Source of the DNA: Octopus vulgaris
Lineage: Eukaryota
DNA: 64,000 nucleotides
Assembly (NCBI GenBank): GCA_951406725.2
Contig: OX597825.1
Location: 44,950,001-45,014,000 of the forward strand
Direction: 5' to 3'
Numbering within the stretch: position 1 is the first letter of the stretch; every line of letters starts with the position of its first letter. The translations under genes were made by a program, and so were the position numbers. The notes under the pieces were generated by a model, which searched no databases, had not been told where the DNA came from, and saw only the letters and a list, made by a program, of their open reading frames with translations. Shown here one piece after another: positions 17,657 to 59,389 of the stretch.

Positions 17657-17706
<50 letters not shown>

Positions 17707-17854
17707 GGGCTTAGTAAAATAAATTACTTTGCCACATACTGAACTTTCTAGAAATAGCAGCCAAAAAAGTTTTTTTAGCCATTTCCACTACTTAAAGAAA
17801 TTGTTGATATATATATATATATATAGGAAAAAAGCAACAAGAATGGATTAAAAT

Positions 17855-17940: not shown

Positions 17941-18322
17941 AAAATATCAGAGAATTCCCAAACATCAAAAGGGGTAGATACAAAAGAGGTTGTAAGATTA
18001 ACTGCATTGAAGAAAGTTCGATTCATGGAGATCCGAGGAAAGGTTTTAAACCTATAGAATTTATGCATGTCTACATATAGCTCATATTGAATATTTGATC
18101 AAGTTGTATGAAGAAATTTTCGGATACAGTCATGCAAAATTTCTGAAAATCCGAGTAAGAGGCAAAGTGATTGCCATATCATGTAGAGGAAGGTCATATC
18201 GTGTAGAGGAACAGATTGTTATTGAAATTTACAAGAATCGCAGATAAGTTCGATTTTTTGGAGATCCGATGAAAAAGTCTTGAACTTACAAAATTTGTGT
18301 ATGTCCTTATAGTTCATAATCC

Positions 18323-19702
18323 AGGAACATTAATAAATACAAAGAATCTGATGATGGGACGATTAATTCTAATAACCCTAACTCTAGTGGGAAAAATTCT
18401 AGCAGCCCTAACTCTAATTCTAAGAAATTTAATAAGAAAGACATAATATGGCTAAACATCCCTTTTAACTGTGCGGTTTCATCAGATATTCAGGGTAGAT
18501 TCAAAACAATTCTAGAAAAAAATTTCCCATCCTCTCATAGATATCATAAAATTATTTCTAAAAAAACAGTCAGAATTTCTTATTCAACTCTCCCAAATAT
18601 GTCCACTTTAATAGCTAAGATCAATAATAATAACATAAAACTAGCCAGAAATAATTTAATAAATAAAAATAAAAATACAACGGAAAATTGTAATAACAGT
18701 ACGAAAAGTAATAATTGCAACAATAATAATAATAATAACAATAACGAATGTCATAAAATAAATATAACCAAAAACCATGGAATTGTTAATATCAATAATA
18801 ACATAAATAGGAATGATTATGTTAGTAATAGGAATAATACCATGAATGTAAGTACAGTGAATGAGAGTAACAACACTATCAGCAACAACACTATACATCT
18901 GGATAACAATATCAACAACAATACTAATAGCATCAACAATATCAGCTATGATAGTAGAGTTATAGAACCAAACGATAGTGTAGGAATACCGACAAATGAT
19001 AATACTACTTTAGGAGATAACATCAACTGCAATAATGATAACATTATTTTAGATAGCAGCACCAATAATAATAATAATGAAAGTAGGGCTTTAGAACCAA
19101 ATGAAAATGTAGGAATACCTATAAATGATAATACTGTTTTAGATAATAATATTAACTACAATAATGATAGAGTTTTTTTAGATAATAACAATAATCAAAA
19201 TCATGATAAATTTACCCGCTCTGCTTCGAGCAACAGTAATATAAGACTTCTATCCTCTAATTATAATGCCCCTAGATGTAATTGCAGAATTAAATCAAAA
19301 TGCCCGGCCCCTGATTCATGCGGGTTAATTAACATAATCTATAAGTGCTCCGTAACCACAGATAATAATAAGTTCTCTTATGTTGGATGCACTGTAAATT
19401 TTAAACAGAGATTGAATAACCATCTCTCATCTTTTAAATTACGTCATAAGGCTGATAGCACTACTCTTTCTAGTAAAATTTGGGAACTAAAAAACAATAA
19501 TATCAAATATAACCTTAATTGGGAATTAGTCAGAAGAGCAAAACCCTATAAAAATAGCAGAGTAGGCTGCCAACTTTGCTCCATGGAAGCATTTGAAATT
19601 CTAATGTATAGAAATAATGGAGAAATTCAATTAAACAGCAGAATTGAACTTGGAAATTCTTGTATACATGCTCGGTTTAAGACTCTTAAATATTTTAAAT
19701 GA
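18323..19702 (+). CDS. PLE ORF C-terminal part: post-RT region, Asn-rich linker, Zn knuckle, GIY-YIG endonuclease (open frame, no 5' end)
   Basis: Frame is open from 18323: IIWLNIPF...VRISYSTLPNM, CNCRIKSKCPAPDSC, IIYKC...YVGCT..FKQRLNNH, CQLCSMEAFEI, LNSRIEL...CIH. Confidence 0.9.
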   Translation, partial: RNINKYKESDDGTINSNNPNSSGKNSSSPNSNSKKFNKKDIIWLNIPFNCAVSSDIQGRFKTILEKNFPSSHRYHKIISKKTVRISYSTLPNMSTLIAKINNNNIKLARNNLINKNKNTTENCNNSTKSNNCNNNNNNNNNECHKINITKNHGIVNINNNINRNDYVSNRNNTMNVSTVNESNNTISNNTIHLDNNINNNTNSINNISYDSRVIEPNDSVGIPTNDNTTLGDNINCNNDNIILDSSTNNNNNESRALEPNENVGIPINDNTVLDNNINYNNDRVFLDNNNNQNHDKFTRSASSNSNIRLLSSNYNAPRCNCRIKSKCPAPDSCGLINIIYKCSVTTDNNKFSYVGCTVNFKQRLNNHLSSFKLRHKADSTTLSSKIWELKNNNIKYNLNWELVRRAKPYKNSRVGCQLCSMEAFEILMYRNNGEIQLNSRIELGNSCIHARFKTLKYFK

Positions 19703-23149: not shown

Positions 23150-24985
23150 TCTCACTGCATTGTGCGAATGTACATTTATATGTGTGTAGGCATCATGAGA
23201 GTCGCTCAGAAATTCTACTAGTTATCTTTTTGTTAGTCCACAGAACAGACAGGGATTCCTCGGGGCAGAGACAGCATCACCTGGAAATTATACTGTATGG
23301 TTTTGCATAACTTACTACGGACCAATAAAAGCTGTACTTTATTTTATCCTCGTTCAGTCACCATACAAAATCTGCCAAAGATGTTGAATGCCTCTTATTG
23401 ATTGTCTTAAAGCTGGCAACATGGTTATGATAACAATTCTTAAATGAATCAGCCATCTGCCTAATGTAAACATAGGGCCCTCCCCTTGTGTGCACGGTAC
23501 ATTTATATACAAGATTTGTACTCAAACAGAGATTCATCAAAGGACATTTTGATTTATCTCTGCATGAGCATTTATTGTATTTATTTGTATATAAGGCAGT
23601 CCTGACTCCATTAACTGGCATTGTTACCATGTTAGTTGTACCATGAGTAGTTCTACTACTACAAATTGGTCGTAGTTGGTGTTTATCAATGTGGTTTACC
23701 TCTCTTTGGTTGGTATTTAGATGCAAATGTTCACTAGATCCAGTAGGTGGGTTATTGAACCTTTGCCACATTTTGCTATTGTTTATGCAATGCATAAGCT
23801 GCTCTAAATTAGCAGAGTTGGCATAGGATACCTTCACGGTGTGTTGATTAAAAATGGTATTATACCAATTAGATTTAGGAAAACACTTGTCCAAAGCAGC
23901 AAAAAATTTTCCAGCAATCTTGGTTAAAACATGCAAACCAAAAATTGGGTTGAACCAGAGGACATCCTGATTCCTATATCTGTTGTTAGGCTTATTTGAT
24001 TGAGTGTGTTGTATAGGATTGGAACAAGTAGTTGAATTATTATGTTGCATGTGCCTATGAGTTTTCATTGGTAGTTCATTGATATGACCAATTTTTTCTG
24101 GCCTGTGTTCTTTATCTGAGTGAGTAATATTGTGGTGGTATACGATATGCATCACAGTTGTAGGAATTACCAGTGTTGTTTATGCCTTCTTCTTGTATAT
24201 ATTAAATTCTTTCACAGTACCCAGCCCTAGCTAGAGCATCATTATAATAAGATGCATGAGATTCAAAAATTTTATTGTTAGCAGATAATCTAGAGATTCT
24301 TGTAGAAATATTCTTAACTAGTCCCCTATAATTGAGGGTGGATGGTTGGATGCTACATTAATGTACTCAATATGATCATTCGGTTTATGAAATGGTTCAA
24401 ATAATCCAGTATCAAGACAGATGGTAGTGTCAAGAAAATTCACTCTACGATTATCTTTACCTATAGTAATGTTTAGTCCTAAATTTTTGAAAAGTCTAAA
24501 GAAATTTTTCCTGTGCCTTTCTAACTGTACTTTACTACTTCTGTCTAGAAACAAATAAGGCGTCATCCCTATATAGACCACCTGTTACTTCAGGAAAGGA
24601 AGACTGGATTAATGAAAGAATATATATTTCAACTAGGTCACTAGCCTGAGCAGAATCATGTGAGCCCATTGCTATATCAAATGCATTTTCCCTGTCTAAT
24701 CTAGAGTGGCTCATGCAGCAAGTATATCTATTTCATGTTGGGACAAATCAGAATTTTCATGCCAAAAATCAGGGCTTGATTAAGAACGATCAGGTTGATA
24801 GTGGCATAGTAGCTCTCTATATCTAGTTGCAAGAATTTACAAGTCTTACTAATTTCTAGAAGCTTGAGCCATCCAAACACCTCTTGGGTATCAGACCAGA
24901 GGGCTTATCAAATTTTAGACTTAAGGACAGGTATTACCCTGTCAATGCCAATATCGGATTTAGAAGGACAAATCAATAAGGAAGT
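23150..24985 (-). mobile_element. Naiad-like PLE, degraded RT + GIY-YIG
   Basis: AMGSHDSAQASDL, YRDDAL, VNFLDTTI, SNHPPSI, VLWFNP, CSCRDKSKCPLMNLC, LVYKC...YVYI. Confidence 0.9.
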
Positions 24986-36312: not shown

Positions 36313-36670
36313 ATAAATAGACATCGTAACGATACCAGCTACCAAATGGTTTCACAGCGAATTGGGGCCCCGAGTGACCTTAGTAAAGTCATTGGGGAGA
36401 ATCCCGAGCCGATTATCAGCTGGGATTCTCCCCAATGACTTTACTAAGGTCACCCAGTGCCCCAATTCACCATGAAACCATTTGGTAGCTGGTATCGTTA
36501 CAATTTTTTATTTTTTAATTTCATCTAGTTTCAGCTCACAAGCTGTGGCCATGCTGGGGCACCGCCATTTAAAAAAGTTGCCAGCAGATGGTTATGGCAT
36601 TCGACCCATACAACTCAGATATTGGCTGAGTACTTTACCATTAAGCTAAATGACCCACAATGTCTATTTA
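36313..36670. mobile_element. Hairpin MITE interrupted by a short SINE
   Basis: 36326-36501 is a near-perfect ~175-bp palindrome; the right arm resumes at about 36657 (acaatgtctattta vs taaatagacatcgt). Confidence 0.8.
36505..36656 (-). mobile_element. Short (~150 bp) tRNA-derived SINE
   Basis: GGGTCATTTAGCTTAATGGTAAAG (A box)...GGTCGAATGCC (B-like), tail GGCGGTGCCCCAGCATGGCCACAGC plus A-rich end; TSD acaat. Confidence 0.75.
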
Positions 36671-43809: not shown

Positions 43810-45476
43810 ATAGAAATGGCAAGACAACAAAAGAATGAAGGAGACCTCGATATTATGTAAATTGAGGAATTTAGCTGTAAATATAATATGTGACAGTTAT
43901 TTGGTAGCCATGATAAAACTCCAAATTTCGGATGTCGGCACAGAAACCTATGCCGGCATCTCTTCAGTTATTGGGCCATCGAAAAAAATGCTTTCTATAC
44001 TAATAATGCCAAGTTAAATCAGAACTTGGCATTATGCAAAAATCAGGAATGCCACTAGGTTAGTACAATGGTCCAATAATATAGAAGTCGTTGACTGATT
44101 TAAAGCCATTAAGAATAAGATAAAGCGAGATTCACGCAATTCGATATTGTCGATTTTTATGCCTCTATCTCTAAGGAACTGCTAAATCAAGCCCTCACCT
44201 TTGCAAGTGAATTCATAAAAATCAGTACACAAGATAAGGACATAATCCTCCATGCGAGAATGCAGAGTGGGTCAAGACTACTGATACAGAGGGTGCTTTC
44301 GATGTGAGCATGGGGTCATATGATGGAGCAGGCATATGCGATCTTATTGGACTATTCCTACTCGATACATTGGGTAAGACTTTTCCCGATGTATACTTCA
44401 CCATTTACAAAGATGATGCCCTATCTTTAACCGCAAATACCAGTGGACCAGCACAGGATCTGTTTAGGAAGGAAATTATCCATTTGATGAAAACCTTCTT
44501 AGCATAACTACAGACACCAATCTGACAGTTGTCAATTTCCTAGATGTATCCTTAGATCTAAATAAGAATATTTATAAACCTTATAGGAAGCCCAACAATA
44601 GACTTAGTTATATTAATGTGGGTTCCTACCATCCCCCCATAGTGTTTAAAAATTTAGTTAAAAACATTAGTAAAAGAATTTCTAGCCTCTCCTCTGATAG
44701 GGACATTTTTAATAGCATTGCACCAGTATATAATAAGGCTCTAGAAGATAGTGAATTTAGTGAGGAAATAACCTATACACCTGCCAACAGTCCAATAATA
44801 AAGAAAAGGAAACATAGGAATAGGAAAACTATCTGGTTCACACTCCCCTACTCACCCGAGGTGTCTTTCAATATAGACAAGTATTTCTTAGCACTTATAG
44901 ATAGTTAGAGTCAACCATAGTTAGAGAAAGCTCTTCAATAGACATAACTTAAAAATCAGTTTCAGCTCAACTACTAATTTTACAAATATAATTACACACA
45001 ACACACAAAAACCACAATATGAAACCAGCTGTTCATGCAGAGATAAAAATTTGTGCCCGCTAAATGGAGCTTGCATGCCCAAGACCATCATTTATGAAGC
45101 CACTGTGAACTCTATATCCACTAAGGACACGGTTTCGACAAAGAAATACATGGGCCTTACAGAGGGTACTTTCAAGGCCAGGTTCAATAATCACACTTTG
45201 AGCTTCAGGCACTGGGATAAAAGGAAAACGACCAAATTATCTAGTCATATATGGTTCTTAAAAGATAAAGGTGTCAGTTACAACATCCATTGGAAGAGCT
45301 TAGCCAAGTGTAAGCCCTACACTAACAGCAGTGGAAAGTGTAGTCTTTGTGATATGGAAACATTACTCATCTGGAAAAGCAGCTTAGACCCCACCATATG
45401 TCTAAATTCAAGAACTGAACTTTTCAGATCATGTCCATATGTGGCTAAATATTTGTTACGTTTTTGGTACCCCTGA
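43810..45476 (+). mobile_element. Naiad-like PLE (degraded RT + GIY-YIG) preceded by an inverted pLTR
   Basis: QFDIVDFY, MGSYDGAGICDL, YKDDA, IWFTLPY, CSCRDKNLCPLNGAC, KYMGLTE..FKARFNNH; 43810-43975 is antisense and starts like 17823. Confidence 0.9.
43913..43971 (-). ncRNA. Degenerate hammerhead ribozyme in the inverted pLTR
   Basis: ataa-CTGAAGA-gatgccggca...tgccgacatc-c-GAAA-tttggag-TT^ttat. Confidence 0.6.
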
Positions 45477-48187: not shown

Positions 48188-48374
48188 GGGCATGTGTGGC
48201 TGTGAGGTAACAAACTACGTTTCAAACATATGGTCCTGGGTTCAGTCCCACTGTCTGGTGACTTGGCATGTGTCTTCTGCTGTAGCCTCAGACCAACAAA
48301 AGCTTTCTCAGTGGATTTTGTACATATATACAGGTATACATATATATACATGCATATGTACATATTCAGCATAA

Positions 48375-50249
48375 ACACTCTACCACTACAACTAATAACT
48401 GTTGGGAACACTTTCAAACCTGCCTTACATTCGAACCGGAATCTCAAAAACATTGTCCCCTTCAGTGCCAAGCTCAACTGCTCTATCCTGACATGGAGGG
48501 TATCAGCAATGAAATCTATAACAAAACACTCATTGACATTGAAGATAGAATTGCTAAACTGGGTGGAAATGAATTGTCGATGTATGGCCTGCCACAAGCA
48601 TTCAGGTCAGGGTCAAATAGCCTTCCCACTGCTGTCATTCGTGAAACAACCTACGACACTCAAGCGCTTTCAAAGTACATGGTTGAAAATGACCCTACAT
48701 TACTTCCGGACCAGCTGCAGATCTACAGAACTATTCTTAACAGTGTACGCCAACGCGAGGGACGAATCTTCTTCCTCGATGCTCCTGGAGGAACAGGAAA
48801 AACATTTATTACAAAGCTTCTCTTTGCAGAAGTTAGGCAGCATCAGGACATTGCAGTAGCTGTAGCCTCCTCTGGCATTGCAGCTACTTTGTTACCCGGT
48901 GGCAGGACAGCACACTCAACTTTTAAACTTCCTCTCAATTTAGCAGCATCCGAAATGCCTTCATGCAACATTAACAAAAGCTCAGATCAGGGACAAGTAC
49001 TTAAAATGTGTCATATAATTGTCTGGGATGAGTGCACTATGGCTCACAAGGGCATTAGATAGAACCCTGAAAGACATCCGAGACTGTCAGGCTCCAATGG
49101 GAGGTGTAACGCTTCTGTTGTCAGGTGATTTCAGGCAAACACTTCCTGTCATTCCGAAAGGCACTAGAGCAGATGAAATCCAAGCATGCCTAAAGTCCTC
49201 TACTCTGTGGCATCATGTTACAATCCTCAGTCTCACCACTAACATGAGAGCTCAGCTACACAGCGACAAAATGTCCACAAAGTTTGCACAGGACATTTTG
49301 ACACTTGGTGAAGGCAAGATGCCTCTCGATGCTGCAGGACAAATGGAAGTGTGGTCATTTTCTTCTGTTGTTAATTCTGTAGATGACCTCAAAAACAAAG
49401 TCTTTCCCAACTTCACACAAAACTACCAAAATCACAACTGGCTGTGTGAGAGAGCAATATTAGCTCCAAAAAACGTCGCTGTTAACAAAATTAATCAACA
49501 GCTAATGCATTCTCTTCCCGGCACTATACACACTTACAAGTCTGTTGATACAATTCTAGATATAAATGAAGTTGTGAACTATCCTCCTGAATTTCTCAAT
49601 TCACTGGAGCCTCCTGGACTACCTCCACACATATTAGCACTTAAAGTTGGAACTCCTGTAACGCTACTCCACAATCTGGAACCACCAAGACTTTGCAATG
49701 GAACACGACTGATGATAAAGAAAATGATGTCACACGTTATCGAGGCAATCATTCTTTCTGGATGTGGGAAAGGTGATGACGTCTTTATTCCAAGAATTCC
49801 TCTTACTCCATCAGGAGCAGAAATTCCATTTACATTCAGAAGACTGCAATTCCCCCTTCGTGTCAGCTTTGCCATGTCCATTAACAAATCTCAGGGTCAA
49901 ACCCTCTCTGTAGCTGGTCTTCTCTTGGAAGAACCCTGCTTCTCGCATGGGCAACTGTATGTTGGCTGCTCAAGAATAGGAACCAAAAGAAACCTTTTTG
50001 TATATGCTCCTCAAGGAAAAACAAGGAACATTGTTTACAACGAGGTGTTATAATCTCAACAGCCAGGAAGTATATACACAATCCCCTTTTTTTTTAACAA
50101 ACTTCATGTACTTTCATGTATTTATATTGATATACATATATATGTGTGTGTGTGTGTGTGTGTATCCATATATATATATATATATATATATGAGAAAAGT
50201 CTAATTCTTCAACTGAATGTAACCAGGCAACGCCGGGTATCTCTGCTAG
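48375..50249 (+). mobile_element. Helitron: Pif1 helicase region plus 3' terminus (Rep domain absent)
   Basis: DAPGGTGKT, WDEC, GDFRQ, LCNGTRL, INKSQGQT, HGQLYV; one frameshift near 49055; hairpin CCAGGCAACGCCGGG then CTAG|T. Confidence 0.95.
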
Positions 50250-53995: not shown

Positions 53996-55199
53996 ATATA
54001 TACGACAGGCTTCTTTCAGTTTCCGTCTACCAAATCCACTCACAAGGCATTGGTCGGCCCGGGGCTATAGCAGAAGACACTTGCCCAAGATGCCACGCAG
54101 TGGGACTGAACCTGGAACCATGTGGTTGGTTAGCAAGCTACTTACAACACAGCCACTCCTGCACCTACTAGTAAAAATGCTATCAGAAATGCTAACCTTC
54201 TAGGTTAGCTAAGAAAATTATGGAAAAATATAACTTACAAATGAAGACTGAGCTTTTAAATCCAAAGCAACCCTGTTTTGTCTTAAAGGACCACAAACCT
54301 AACTTCTTCAATAACCCAACTTTCTGTCTTATCTGCCCTTCCAGCTGATATCAGTATACTTAGCAAAAATATTCTTGACAAGTACATTCCTTCATTAACA
54401 AAAAAACTTAAACTTAATTTATGGTCTAACTCGTTCCAGGTTGTGGACTGGTTCAACTCTATCAATAATAAACTAAACACTAAATTTATCCAGTTTGATA
54501 TTAGTTTGATATTCCCCTATCAATCCCATCATCTTTAATAAAGCCCTATGGTTCATGCATAATAAAACTGGCCTCTTTTGGGATGAAATAAATTTCATAA
54601 CAAATTTTGGGTTCATAAAGATTGACCTGACTGCCTTGCTATACCTATGGGATCTAGTGGCTCGGCTCAAATTTCTGAATTGGTCGGTATTTATATTTTA
54701 TCAGATATGGGTGACCGATTCCCATATATCCTCACTGGCTTATATCGCGACAACTGCCTCCTTTACCCCCAAAATATCTCTAATCAAAAACTACAAAAGG
54801 TTAAAAACAATTTTGTCAAATTCTTTAGTAATATGGGCTTAAGTATTACCTTCGATGATGATAAAAATAAGGTTAATTTCCTTGATCTTACACTCAACTT
54901 AAATACAGCCTTATATTTCCCATACCATAAACATTTAACCAACCTAAAATACCTCAGCATTTTTAGCAATCACCCTGCTAATATAACCAAAAAATTGGTT
55001 AAAAACATATTGCTTAGAATCTTTTAATTATCTGCCAATGTAATCGTTTTCAATAATAGTGCTGATTTCTATAATTCAGCCTTGTATAAGGTATATAAAG
55101 AACAAATTAAGTATTATAACCATCCTGATCCAGGCTCAACTTCTAATTATCTAGATGACAGTAATTATGCTGCTGCTACTACTACTGCCACTACTACTG

Positions 55200-55267
<68 letters not shown>

Positions 55268-55960
55268 ACAACTACTACTACTACTACTAATAATAATAAT
55301 AATAATAATAATAACAACAAGTAACCTTCCCTACCTATTTCATCAAACTATAGAAAGGAACTTTCCCAAAAATTCCAGGTACCACTCCATTTTCGACACC
55401 CACCGAAAAGAATTGACTTTTCCAACACCAATAACTTCCTACAGATTATATCCTTGCATAACAACTATATTCTTAAAGGTAAAAAAAGAGTTTCACTTAA
55501 TAACTGTAATAACTGTAATAACATTAATAATAATAACGATTGTCTATCCTTAAATAATAGTATCAAAAGTAATAGTCCTTGTAATTGTGGTCTGAATAAA
55601 ACTTGTGTTCTCAACAGAAATTGTAGAATTACTAATGCTACTTACCAATGCAAACTTATCTCTGAATCTAAAGAAATCTTTTATATTGGATTTGTTTCTA
55701 TGGAAGTGAAACAAATCACCTTTCCGCATTTAAATACAATCCATAAACATAATTCTACAGGTCTTGGCATCCCAAAGACTCTAATAAACAGTTTTCTTTA
55801 GATTGGAAAATTTTATCAAGACCATTTCCCTATGATGAAAGGAAATCATTCTGTCCTCTTTGTACGGACGAACAACTATTTATACTCTTTTCCAAACATA
55901 CACTGGTCAGCACCTATAAAGAATGTGTTTACAGGTGTTTTCATTGGAAACAACATTTGT
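53560..55960 (+). mobile_element. Naiad-like PLE (degraded RT + GIY-YIG) with SINE and microsatellite insertions
   Basis: DKTGNLY, LKDHKPNF, FIQFDI, MGSSGSAQISELVG, LYRDNC, VNFLDLTL, SNHPA, CNCGLNKTCVLNRNC, FYIG. Confidence 0.88.
53737..54165 (-). mobile_element. tRNA-derived SINE
   Basis: 10047 family, full length, reverse strand. Confidence 0.88.
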
Positions 55961-56718
55961 TCAGCTATTTCAAATAATATCTACCCCTTACTTAGCAACA
56001 TCTGCAACTTACTTTATATTCTTACTTCCCATACCTTTTATTCTTTCCTTCATCTTTTCTTTCCAACATCATTTTTTTCTATATTTGCTTATACCTCCAT
56101 TTCCCCTTTAATTCTCTTTCTCTCTTTTTCTTTTCCTTCTCTTCTTCTCTTACCCTATGATGTCAAATTTCTTAACAGCAATTTAAAAATTACTAGCATT
56201 CCCTATACAACTTTGCTTTCTATATATGTATATGTGTGTATGTGTGCATGCATGTATATACATGTATATGGGTATATGTGTGCATGAGTGCATGTATGTA
56301 TTTATATGCATACATATTTATGCATATATATATGCATATATTTATGCATACATATACATGCATAGACATGTGATTATATGTATATAATACATATAATTAT
56401 TATTATAGTTATTATACAGTTTGCTGGACATTGTTGTAGGGCTGAAAACAATTACAGAGAAGACAGAATTCCTTGCCTTTGACATTATTTTTTCTAAAAA
56501 TCCCCTAGTAAACACGGTTATAGAGTGAGCATACAGATGTAAACATTGGCAAAAACTTTAGGAAAGTAAAAAAAACGAAACTCGTCAATAAGACATTTTA
56601 GCAAAAAATGATGGATTTGTATAGCGATTAACTGAACGCTATTAATATTGTTTAAAAAAAACGTTATATGATATAACGTCAAAAGTAGCTAACAGAAACA
56701 GTAGGGATATTAATAGTG

Positions 56719-57804
56719 AATTCGGATTTGGAAACACTGAAAGTAGGAGCATACCCTTTTGGCGACTTTTCACCTCAGAAGATCCGTTCAAACTAACAGT
56801 GCCAGCAAATTCAAAATATGCAAGCGAAGAATTCCTGCTCTCCCCCTTCCACCCACATGGGTCAGACTAGTAAACACCATATTTTATCGGTGAAAACCGA
56901 GGCATTAAACAGAGAGAAATGAATTATAATTTCAACAATTGAGGGTAAAATTAATTAGTTATTAATCAATTTCACCAAGTATTCAGTATGTAAAGGGACC
57001 ATTTAAGGCGAATTCAAAATATTACATTGTATAAAAGGGCTTAGTAAAATAAATTACTTTGCCACATACTGAACTCATTAGAAATAGCAGCCAAAAAAAG
57101 ATTTTTTAGCCATTTCTAATACTTAAAGAAAATTTCTCTCAGATAGTGTTTACTCAAAATAACCCACGAAGGTATGGGGGTAAAACATTAAAAAATCACA
57201 AGTGCAAAGATTATTTGAGAACGTACGTTTCTAGAATTCTTGAATTCACCTTAAATGGTCCCTTTACATACTGAATACTTGGTGAAATTGATTAATAACT
57301 AATTAATTTTACCCTCAATTGTTGAAATTATAATTCATTTCTCTCTGTTTAATGCCTCGGTTTTCACCGATAAAATATGGTGTTTACTAGTCTGACCCAC
57401 GTGGGTGGAAGGGGGAGAGCAGGAATTCTTCGCTTGCATATTTTGAATTTGCTGGCACTGTTAGTTTGAACGGATCTTCTGAGGTGAAAAGTCGCCAAAA
57501 GGGTATGCTCCTACTTTCAGTGTTTCCAAATCCGAATTAAGAAATTTTGGGCTGACGAAAGAAATGTCGAATTGTATTTGGCTGATCTAGAAACGTACGT
57601 TCTCAAATAATCTTTGCACTTGTGATTTTTTAATGTTTTTACCCCCATACCTTCGTGGGTTATTTTGAGTAAACACTATCTGAGAGAAATTTTCTTTAAG
57701 TATTAGAAATGGCTAAAAAATCTTTTTTTGGCTGCTATTTCTAATGAGTTCAGTATGTGGCAAAGTAATTTATTTTACTAAGCCCTTTTATACAATGTAA
57801 TATT
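56719..57804. mobile_element. Interleaved double inverted repeat A-B-A'-HHR-B' (non-coding, pLTR/retrozyme-like)
   Basis: A 56719-57017 is the reverse complement of 57240-57538; B 57018-57235 is the reverse complement of 57586-57804; near-identical. Confidence 0.9.
57546..57607 (+). ncRNA. Hammerhead ribozyme variant
   Basis: tttggg-CTGACGA-a-aga..gtcgaat tgt atttggc..tct-a-GAAA-cgtacg-TT^ctcaaa; 6-bp stem I and palindromic stem III. Confidence 0.78.
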
Positions 57805-57822
57805 ATATATATATATGTATAA

Positions 57823-57958: not shown

Positions 57959-58005
<47 letters not shown>

Positions 58006-58006
<1 letters not shown>

Positions 58007-59295
58007 GAGGGGCGTTCAATAAGTAATGCCCCTGACCCACTTGCAGTTGTTGGATCTAGCTGAAATGTTGCATGTGCAATTATTTATATCTCTATAGATT
58101 AAGTGGCAAATTACAGCTCTGAACTAATTGTGGTTTCCGATTTACAGGTGTTTGAACTGAGTCAAGTGTGAAATGGAGCATGTTGAGTGTCGAGCAGTGA
58201 TCCGGTTTTTGTATTTGAAAGGACGCACACCGCGGGAGACTTTTGATGAAATGAAAGTAACTTATTGTGATGATGCCCCATCATATGACCTTGTGAAACG
58301 CTGGCATCGTGAATTCAAACATGGTCGGAACTCTGTGGAAACAGCTCCCAGATCTGGTCGCCCCATCTGCCATTGATGAGGCATCTGTCCGTCAAGTTGA
58401 GGCTGCCATTTTGGAAGACCGACGCATAACTATTCACCAAATAGCCCATGAGGTCAAGATTAGTACCGGGTCTGTGGAAACTGTCATTCATGACCATTTG
58501 CATATGCAAAAGGTATCTGCCAGATGGATTCCCATGTTGCTCACACCTTTCCAGAAGCAAAAACGCGTCGATTGCTCCAGGATGAATTTGGAGATGTGCC
58601 AAGAAGATGAGTCAAAATTTTTCAAAAGACTGATTGCATAGGATAAAACCTGGGTCCATCACTATGATCCAGCGACCAAAGCCCAGTCAATGCAGTGGAA
58701 GCACCGTGACTCACCTCCTCCAAAGAAGGCAAGGGTGCAGCCCTCCACTGGCAAGGTCATGCTTACAGTCTTCTGGGACCAGGATGGAGTAGTGATGACA
58801 GATTTCCTGGCAAAGGGTGCCACAATTACAGGAGTCTATTATGTTTCACTTTTGAGGAAATTAAGAGAAGCTATCAAAATCAAGAGGCGGGGCAAGATCA
58901 GCAAAGGCATCCTCCTCCTGCAGGACAACGCTCCGATCCACAACTCGCATGTCCCCAGATCAGAAGCACAGGCGTGCGGCTATGAACTCATCCACCATCC
59001 CCCCTACTCTCCTGACCTTGCACCCTCTGATTTTCACCTCTTCCCAGCCATGAAGTTGTTTTTGAAAGGAAAGCGTTTCCCAGATGATGCAGCCTTGATT
59101 TCTGAAGTCACGTCGTGGTTGGAGGACCAAGCTGGGGTCTTCTACAAAAACGGTCTTCAGAGCTGCATCAAACGATGGGAGAAATGCGTAACTCTGGGTG
59201 GTTCCTATGTAGAAAAAGACTAATAACTGTGCCAAGTTTCGTTGCTCTACTGCTATGGGAAGTGGGTCAGGGGCATTACTTATTGAACGACCCTC

Positions 59296-59296
<1 letters not shown>
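58006..59296 (+). mobile_element. Full-length mariner (1291 bp) in (TA)n
   Basis: 37-bp TIRs cgaggggcgttcaataagtaatgcccctgacccactt with one mismatch; TA flanks. Confidence 0.97.
58173..59223 (+). pseudogene. mariner DD34D transposase with one frameshift (~58365) and one stop (58639-58641)
   Basis: [54 protein letters not shown]. Confidence 0.95.

Positions 59297-59389
<93 letters not shown>

What the first reader, a model, noticed from the sequence alone, without database searches (positions are those of the whole stretch)
56719..57804. Interleaved A-B-A'-HHR-B' unit implying a head-to-tail (tandem or circular) template
Seen: the sense unit A'-x-B' (57240-57804, 565 nt) contains one HHR and no ORF. 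The antisense block upstream (56719-57235) is not its mirror image but a permutation, joining the last base of B' directly to the first base of A' (junction 57017/57018). Copies are nearly identical (two substitutions and one indel seen), so the event is recent. Established: retrozymes are non-autonomous HHR repeats that produce circular RNAs and are thought to be mobilised by PLEs. Inference: reverse transcription across a circle or multimer junction; the alternative is two successive template switches during integration.
Basis: partly seen in the sequence, partly recalled or inferred. Interest (0 to 1): 0.85.

Follow-up and report, generated by a model that had tools for sequence, protein, structure and literature searches.

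The report
Head-to-head Penelope-type retrozyme insertion
This is one young copy of an abundant 565-base non-coding repeat with a predicted hammerhead ribozyme that likely hitch-hikes on Penelope-like retrotransposons, and its sister copies show a strict rule (one arm ends at one fixed site, the other arm at a second fixed site) suggesting that both ends of the cut DNA are likely copied from the RNA separately.

Summary
The junction is not special: it occurs 855 times in the genome, and natural head-to-tail arrays reach 13 units. The unit is a non-coding, structurally conserved repeat with a type I hammerhead, i.e. an animal retrozyme / non-autonomous Penelope-like element (PLE). Copies sit in (TA)n, are 5'-truncated, and have two fixed 3' ends (J = 564/565, T = 93). 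In 73 of 82 head-to-head insertions one arm ends at J and the other at T; an autonomous Hydra-type PLE in the same genome does the same in 15 of 16. In 25 of 66 cases neither arm lies within the other, which fold-back copying cannot give. A head-to-tail template is therefore supported. A circle is not required, and at least 4 of 60 insertions mix haplotypes. This copy is atypical: its left arm ends at 299. Known architecture, new family; the paired-priming rule is a testable refinement.

The parts
57240..57804 (+). Sense arm: exactly one 565-nt unit (positions 1-565), 3' end at the family's fixed site J, abutting (TA)n
57018..57235 (-). Inverted arm, 5' part: unit 347-565 (starts inside the hammerhead, lacks its 5' half)
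56719..57017 (-). Inverted arm, 3' part: unit 1-299; reads through the usual T end (unit 93, about 56925) and stops at a non-canonical site
57236..57239 (.). 4-nt spacer at the head-to-head junction
57540..57613 (+). Type I hammerhead motif: CUGACGA 57552-57558, extended stem II, GAAA 57590-57593, palindromic stem III, predicted cut after GUU at 57601; activity untested
57240..57332 (+). Unit 1-93: the 93-nt 'tail' between the two fixed 3' ends J and T; most conserved part of the unit
57281..57313 (+). Conserved tail hairpin (unit 42-74); pattern found 2432 times in the genome
57266..57276 (+). 5'-side strand (unit 27-37) of an 11-bp predicted helix that pairs with 57748-57758 and, in a head-to-tail RNA, closes locally around J; one compensatory pair
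57748..57758 (+). Partner strand (unit 509-519) of the junction-spanning helix
57702..57745 (+). Conserved hairpin (unit 463-506), two compensatory pairs
57805..57817 (.). (TA)n target on the right flank
56450..56721 (.). Left flank: three scrambled pieces of the 3' region of another, older PLE family (H2, 92-93% to its copies); 3-nt microhomology AAT (56719-56721) with the inverted arm

Best explanation
The locus is one young head-to-head insertion of a 565-nt non-coding hammerhead repeat with thousands of genomic copies, likely mobilised in trans by a Hydra-type Penelope-like retrotransposon that likely extends both ends of a DNA break separately from a head-to-tail RNA. Shown: family, tandem junction, two fixed 3' ends J (564/565) and T (93), (TA)n targets, variable 5' ends, one-J-plus-one-T pairing, conserved fold. 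Inferred: a PLE protein (probably a dimer) binds the structured J/T platform, cuts (TA)n, primes one DNA end at T and the other at J, both reverse transcriptases run 5'-ward, often across unit junctions and the uncut (or religated) hammerhead site, and the two cDNA ends are joined by end-joining, giving the inverted layout and a 'tail' on one arm only. At this locus the right end was primed at J and copied one unit; the left end was likely primed off-site at 299 through 3-nt microhomology (or trimmed later) and copied across the junction to 347.
For: 855 exact junctions, control 0; 2466 and 2432 hits of two other unit patterns. J+T in 73 of 82 two-arm insertions, T+T 3, J+J 1, other 5; binomial p 9e-18 against independent choice on the 77 classable ones; 29 of 33 in the subset found without needing a junction; 19 of 19 counted by eye in tail-selected loci (one structure duplicated, one degraded locus left out). 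Same rule in a 717-aa PLE with Hydra motifs RWK, DKT, CxCX5C (15 of 16, 67-nt tail; motifs per PMC8557442 section 11) and in family H2 (5 of 5). Arms not nested in each other in 25 of 66 clean J+T insertions, 23 of them by >=30 nt, 3 with no shared sequence; the focal arms are not nested either. Arms come from the same source lineage: in 51 of 62 insertions <=5% of other arms are closer. (TA)4 at both outer ends in 68 of 82. Junctions mostly carry 0-9 nt overlap. Fold z -7.7; 15 of 150 pairs compensatory, 0 of 500 shuffles as high. PAc in vitro cuts and extends both strands, starts at two internal sites that bound the tail, and does not need hammerhead cleavage (PMC11167929).
Against: No autonomous partner sharing the J/T sequence was found among six Hydra-like families sampled or next to any fetched copy. 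The focal copy is one of the 9 of 82 exceptions. PMC11167929 saw no difference of start site between the two strands in vitro. 41 of 66 arm pairs are nested and 11 of 66 have 5' ends within 10 nt (3.1 expected, p 0.0004), which fold-back also explains. Arm ends come from BLAST against one young unit (about +-10 nt; class windows J 534-6, T 83-104), loci are mostly from contig C1 and partly chosen for holding a junction or a full unit. The covariation structure was derived from the same 14 related sequences, so its controls are lenient. No RNA or read data were laid.
Confidence: 0.7

Rival explanations
1. The template of this copy was a ligated 565-nt monomer circle copied by rolling-circle reverse transcription. 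Compatible with paired priming; the number is the chance that a circle was the template here.
For: Animal retrozymes accumulate as circles (PMC7229834 passages). The hammerhead-to-hammerhead monomer folds with its ends brought together. 76 of 133 arms read through the cut site. The focal sense arm is exactly one unit long. 49 of 60 insertions have near-identical repeats; arrays reach 13 units.
Against: 4 of 60 insertions differ between repeats at >=3 shared non-CpG polymorphisms, 11 of 60 at >=2; L096 is a five-unit array of several haplotypes. One-unit-long J arms are not clearly enriched (3 of 22 at risk). A 2.6-kb autonomous PLE makes the same multimers. A 1.4-unit linear RNA explains this locus.
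Confidence: 0.25
2. Fold-back self-priming: one cDNA folds on itself and is copied back, and the endonuclease trims the second arm at J.
For: Proposed for palindromic inverted junctions (PMC3846280 passage) and 'EN-mediated resolution' for the tail (PMC8557442 passage). 11 of 66 pairs have matching 5' ends; 41 of 66 are nested.
Against: 25 of 66 pairs, and the focal pair, are not nested; 3 share no sequence. It may hold for a minority of copies, not for this one in a single step.
Confidence: 0.07
3. Local variant on the left end only: the inverted arm first ended at T like its sisters and a later microhomology deletion removed 299 onward together with part of the flank.
For: The left flank is not (TA)n but a cut, scrambled piece of an older PLE joined by 3-nt microhomology; 73 of 82 sisters would have T here.
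Against: Off-site 3' ends abutting (TA)n exist (L027 at 307, L038 at 511), so mis-priming happens; the insertion is young (0.4% between arms), leaving little time.
Confidence: 0.4
4. Misassembly, or two chance template switches unique to this locus.
For: No reads were laid on this locus.
Against: Junction present 855 times; the same layout in dozens of loci on many contigs; the arms differ at three places.
Confidence: 0.02

Closest known systems
Animal non-LTR retrozymes (Cervera & de la Pena 2020, PMC7229834; Li, Clavereau & Pollet 2026 preprint 10.64898/2026.07.22.740005)
   Same: Non-coding tandem unit with a type I hammerhead, GC below 45%, monomers to multimers, strongly structured RNA.
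   Different: 565 nt against the ~300 nt typical monomer (inside the 51-972 range of Li et al.). Cleavage and circles untested here. In the parts read, these papers do not describe fixed priming ends or head-to-head insertions; most copies here are dispersed fresh insertions, not satellites.
EN+ Penelope-like elements, Hydra clade (Craig et al. 2021, PMC8557442), and the non-autonomous Chlamys elements such as MRC1 described there
   Same: 5' truncation, partial tandems, inverted 5' arm, tail at one end, (TA)n targets, hammerhead; young Hydra-motif elements in this genome follow the same J+T rule.
   Different: No ORF; tail 93 nt against 30-40 nt; no 3' sequence match to an autonomous family found, unlike the Chlamys non-autonomous elements.
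PAc Poseidon mechanism (Frangieh et al. 2024, PMC11167929)
   Same: Two internal start sites bounding the tail, AT-rich targets, both strands extended, uncut RNA as template.
   Different: That paper reports no strand difference in start site and does not pair the two sites within one insertion; the genomic data here show one-each pairing.
L1 twin priming (passages of PMC11702581)
   Same: Second DNA end primed internally on the RNA; inverted arms joined by end-joining with microhomology.
   Different: In L1 the second site is variable and next to the end of the first cDNA; here it is a fixed site and the arms often overlap by hundreds of bases.

Membership tests
Animal non-LTR retrozyme | Type I hammerhead in each unit | tested here: met
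   Core CUGA(C/U)GA...GAAA in 79 of 85 segments; stems I and II covary between subfamilies. Atypical A.A or U.U next to stem II; Rfam silent.
Animal non-LTR retrozyme | Head-to-tail tandem repeats, dimers to multimers | tested here: met
   Arrays of 3, about 6, 13 units. The focal locus itself holds only one whole hammerhead, so it fails Li et al.'s 'active' criterion.
Animal non-LTR retrozyme | No protein coding; GC below 45% | tested here: met
   Longest ORF 43 aa, GC 34%.
Animal non-LTR retrozyme | Self-cleavage of the RNA | not testable with these tools
   Indirect only: 6 of 133 5' ends at 355-372, about 4 expected by length share; 76 of 133 arms read through.
Animal non-LTR retrozyme | Accumulation of circular monomer RNA | not testable with these tools
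   No raw RNA reads listed; nothing was laid.
Non-autonomous EN+ PLE | Fixed 3' ends with an optional tail; variable 5' truncation; partial tandems | tested here: met
Non-autonomous EN+ PLE | Inverted 5'-truncated arm, head-to-head, tail on one end | tested here: met
   82 two-arm insertions against 45 single-arm; 73 J+T.
Non-autonomous EN+ PLE | Microsatellite (TA)n target | tested here: met
   68 of 82 both ends; 40 of 45 single-arm 3' ends. Focal copy: right end only.
Non-autonomous EN+ PLE | 3' / pLTR homology to an autonomous PLE | tested here: inconclusive
   No match beyond chance to six sampled families; no ORF joined to any fetched copy; protein searches show about 20,000 candidates of which 150 are scored per call, so sampling is thin.
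Non-autonomous EN+ PLE | Target-site duplication | tested here: inconclusive
   Not readable in (TA)n; none at the focal copy.

The most novel reading that the evidence does not exclude
Penelope-like elements integrate by programmed double priming: the two fixed RNA start sites are assigned one to each DNA end, so the 'optional tail' is the obligatory signature of an asymmetric two-RT integration step, and this retrozyme keeps a junction-spanning RNA platform to exploit it, which would tie animal retrozymes directly to PLE machinery without needing a circular intermediate.
Probability: 0.55. Interest if true: 0.7.

Novelty: new member of a known kind. Interest (0 to 1): 0.45.

Why it matters
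How PLEs make their tandem/inverted structures and one-sided tail is stated as open in PMC8557442 and PMC11167929, and how animal retrozymes integrate is stated as open in the 2026 preprint. This genome offers thousands of young insertions of a short unit plus intact autonomous PLEs, so the models can be counted against each other: the one-J-one-T rule and non-nested arms favour two coordinated reverse transcriptions and argue against simple fold-back. It also shows a retrozyme-type unit with full PLE insertion marks, direct support for PLE mobilisation in an invertebrate. The single locus itself is ordinary, even atypical, and gives no evidence for a circle.

Tried and rejected
Rfam at two thresholds: no hammerhead hit. 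Pfam: nothing on five PLE proteins; clade call rests on motifs read against PMC8557442 section 11. Autonomous partner: BLAST of unit plus tail against six PLE families and tblastn around all fetched copies found none; a weak antisense match in a 980-aa family (E 0.06-0.16) was treated as chance. A shared ATGTAA...TTACAT stem around J in the unit and the 717-aa element, noticed by eye, was not borne out by the folds. EcoRI-like sites at the junctions: 21 in the window, part of the family sequence, no artefact. Circle tests: integer-length arms and stops at the hammerhead cut not significant; private-allele test uninformative (33 shared by all repeats of a locus, 123 single). Earlier findings: none for this genome or sequence. 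Rows dropped before counts: duplicate overlapping loci; five copies of one small insertion carried inside another PLE (counted once); loci interrupted by later insertions or N runs. Literature searches found no paper stating the one-each pairing or a cephalopod retrozyme; subscription papers (e.g. Evgen'ev & Arkhipova 2005, Arkhipova 2006) and all supplements were not seen and may hold it.

Full report
Observation. The antisense block 56719-57235 is the reverse complement of unit positions 347-565 joined directly to 1-299 of the sense unit 57240-57804, with two substitutions and one single-base gap, and four spacer bases between the arms. The unit has no ORF above 43 aa and 34% GC. A type I hammerhead lies at 57540-57613 with a palindromic stem III and a predicted cut after GUU at 57601. 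Rfam does not detect it, but the core is kept in 79 of 85 copies examined and stems I and II change in a compensatory way between subfamilies. Palindromic stem III is the dimer-type feature described for PLE hammerheads (PMC4209133, passages). The genome is 2.8 Gb in 227 contigs; from size and repeats I guess an octopus (recall, not tested).

The family. A search with the unit gave 2352 candidates, 40 scored. The exact B|A junction occurs 855 times, reversed control 0; two other unit patterns occur 2466 and 2432 times. Natural head-to-tail arrays of 3, about 6 and 13 units exist. Subfamilies are 80-99% alike. The unit folds far better than shuffles (z -7.7) into a long rod with the hammerhead at one end; 15 of 150 consensus pairs show double changes among 14 units, above all 500 shuffles, with the caveat that the structure came from these related sequences. 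An 11-bp helix pairs 509-519 with 27-37 and would close locally around the B|A junction in a head-to-tail RNA.

Insertion architecture. Copies have variable 5' ends and two fixed 3' ends, J (564/565) and T (93), 93 nt apart, nearly always in (TA)n. Of 82 head-to-head insertions 73 have one J and one T arm, 3 T+T, 1 J+J, 5 an off-site end; 29 of 33 in the subset found without needing a junction; 19 of 19 by eye in a tail-selected set. A young 717-aa element with the Hydra motifs RWK, DKT and CxCX5C (motifs from PMC8557442 section 11) forms 2585-nt tandems and shows the same rule in 15 of 16 inverted insertions, with a 67-nt tail; I chose several of those loci because they had opposite-strand hits, not by end type. 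A third family does so in 5 of 5. [quoted passage not shown]

Mechanism. If the second arm were a fold-back copy of the first cDNA it would lie within it. In 25 of 66 clean J+T pairs neither arm lies within the other, 23 by 30 nt or more, and three pairs share no sequence. The focal pair is not nested either. Both arms must then have been copied from RNA, each from its own DNA end. The two arms come from the same source lineage (51 of 62 with at most 5% of other arms closer). This fits PAc biochemistry: both strands cut and extended, two internal start sites bounding the tail, predicted dimer, no need for ribozyme cleavage (PMC11167929, parts 1-3 of 4 read). Against: that paper saw no strand difference in start site; 41 of 66 pairs are nested and 11 of 66 have matching 5' ends (p 0.0004), which fold-back or a shared broken RNA end would both give; the mobilising element was not identified.

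Circle or multimer. 76 of 133 arms read through the hammerhead cut, and 5' ends are not clearly piled at it (6 of 133), so templates were uncut multimers or religated circles. At least 4 of 60 insertions mix haplotypes at three or more shared non-CpG sites; L096 is a five-unit array of several haplotypes. A single monomer circle cannot make these at birth, though later gene conversion could. 49 of 60 are near-uniform and fit either. For this locus a linear 1.4-unit RNA suffices. Circles are known for other animal retrozymes (PMC7229834 passages) and remain possible; no RNA data could be laid.

This copy. The right arm ends at J in (TA)n and is one unit long. The left arm passes T and ends at 299, joined by 3-nt microhomology to scrambled pieces of an older PLE family. 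It is one of 9 exceptions among 82. Off-site priming or a later deletion cannot be told apart without an empty allele. Arms differ by 0.4%, so it is young.

Placement and verdict. It works like, and on all testable features is, an animal non-LTR retrozyme behaving as a non-autonomous PLE (2026 preprint, parts 1-3 of 5 read); cleavage, circles and the partner are untested or not found. Seven paper searches gave no cephalopod retrozyme and no statement of one-each pairing; subscription papers and supplements were not seen. New member of a known kind; interest 0.45, carried by the testable paired-priming rule rather than by this locus.

Noticed in passing
G000:C1:57207500-57225000 (L101, L102): Young intact 717-aa Hydra-type PLE in a four-unit tandem plus inverted arm; its hammerhead-like motif has CCGAAGA in place of CUGANGA, and three arms (L102, L106, L109) begin at 2399-2408, just past the predicted cut.
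   Followed up: partly
window 18320-19702 (+): 3' part of another PLE with a long Asn-rich insert before the endonuclease; family has 99%-identical copies and 1090-aa open frames, recalling the Asn-rich inserts of rotifer Penelope (PMC3846280).
   Followed up: partly
L130, L135, L151, L163, L167, L168: One small J+T insertion of this unit appears to have been captured downstream of another PLE family's ORF and copied along with it.
   Followed up: partly
L096 (G000:C1:213671300-213677300): Five-unit array of several haplotypes; the inverted arm matches only the 5'-most unit.
   Followed up: partly
window 17667-17800 (-): Short 5'-truncated older copy of the same unit (about 89-93%) ending near J in (TA)n.
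   Followed up: partly
window 58003-59297: Mariner-type transposon with terminal inverted repeats in (TA)n and a broken transposase.
   Followed up: no
window 36586-36655 and 36783 (-): tRNA-like stretch (Rfam 35.5 bits) and a second hammerhead-like motif with palindromic stem III about 130 nt away.
   Followed up: no
window 44036-45473, 54208-55970, 23157-24976: Further broken Hydra-like PLE ORFs; the first is 77-85% identical to the 717-aa protein.
   Followed up: partly
window 48286-50053 (+): Broken ORF that looks like a PIF1-type helicase of a Helitron (recalled motifs, not tested).
   Followed up: no
hammerhead stem II flanks, unit 320 and 350: The two bases flanking stem II switch together between A...A and U...U across subfamilies, A...U in a third; unexplained.
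   Followed up: no
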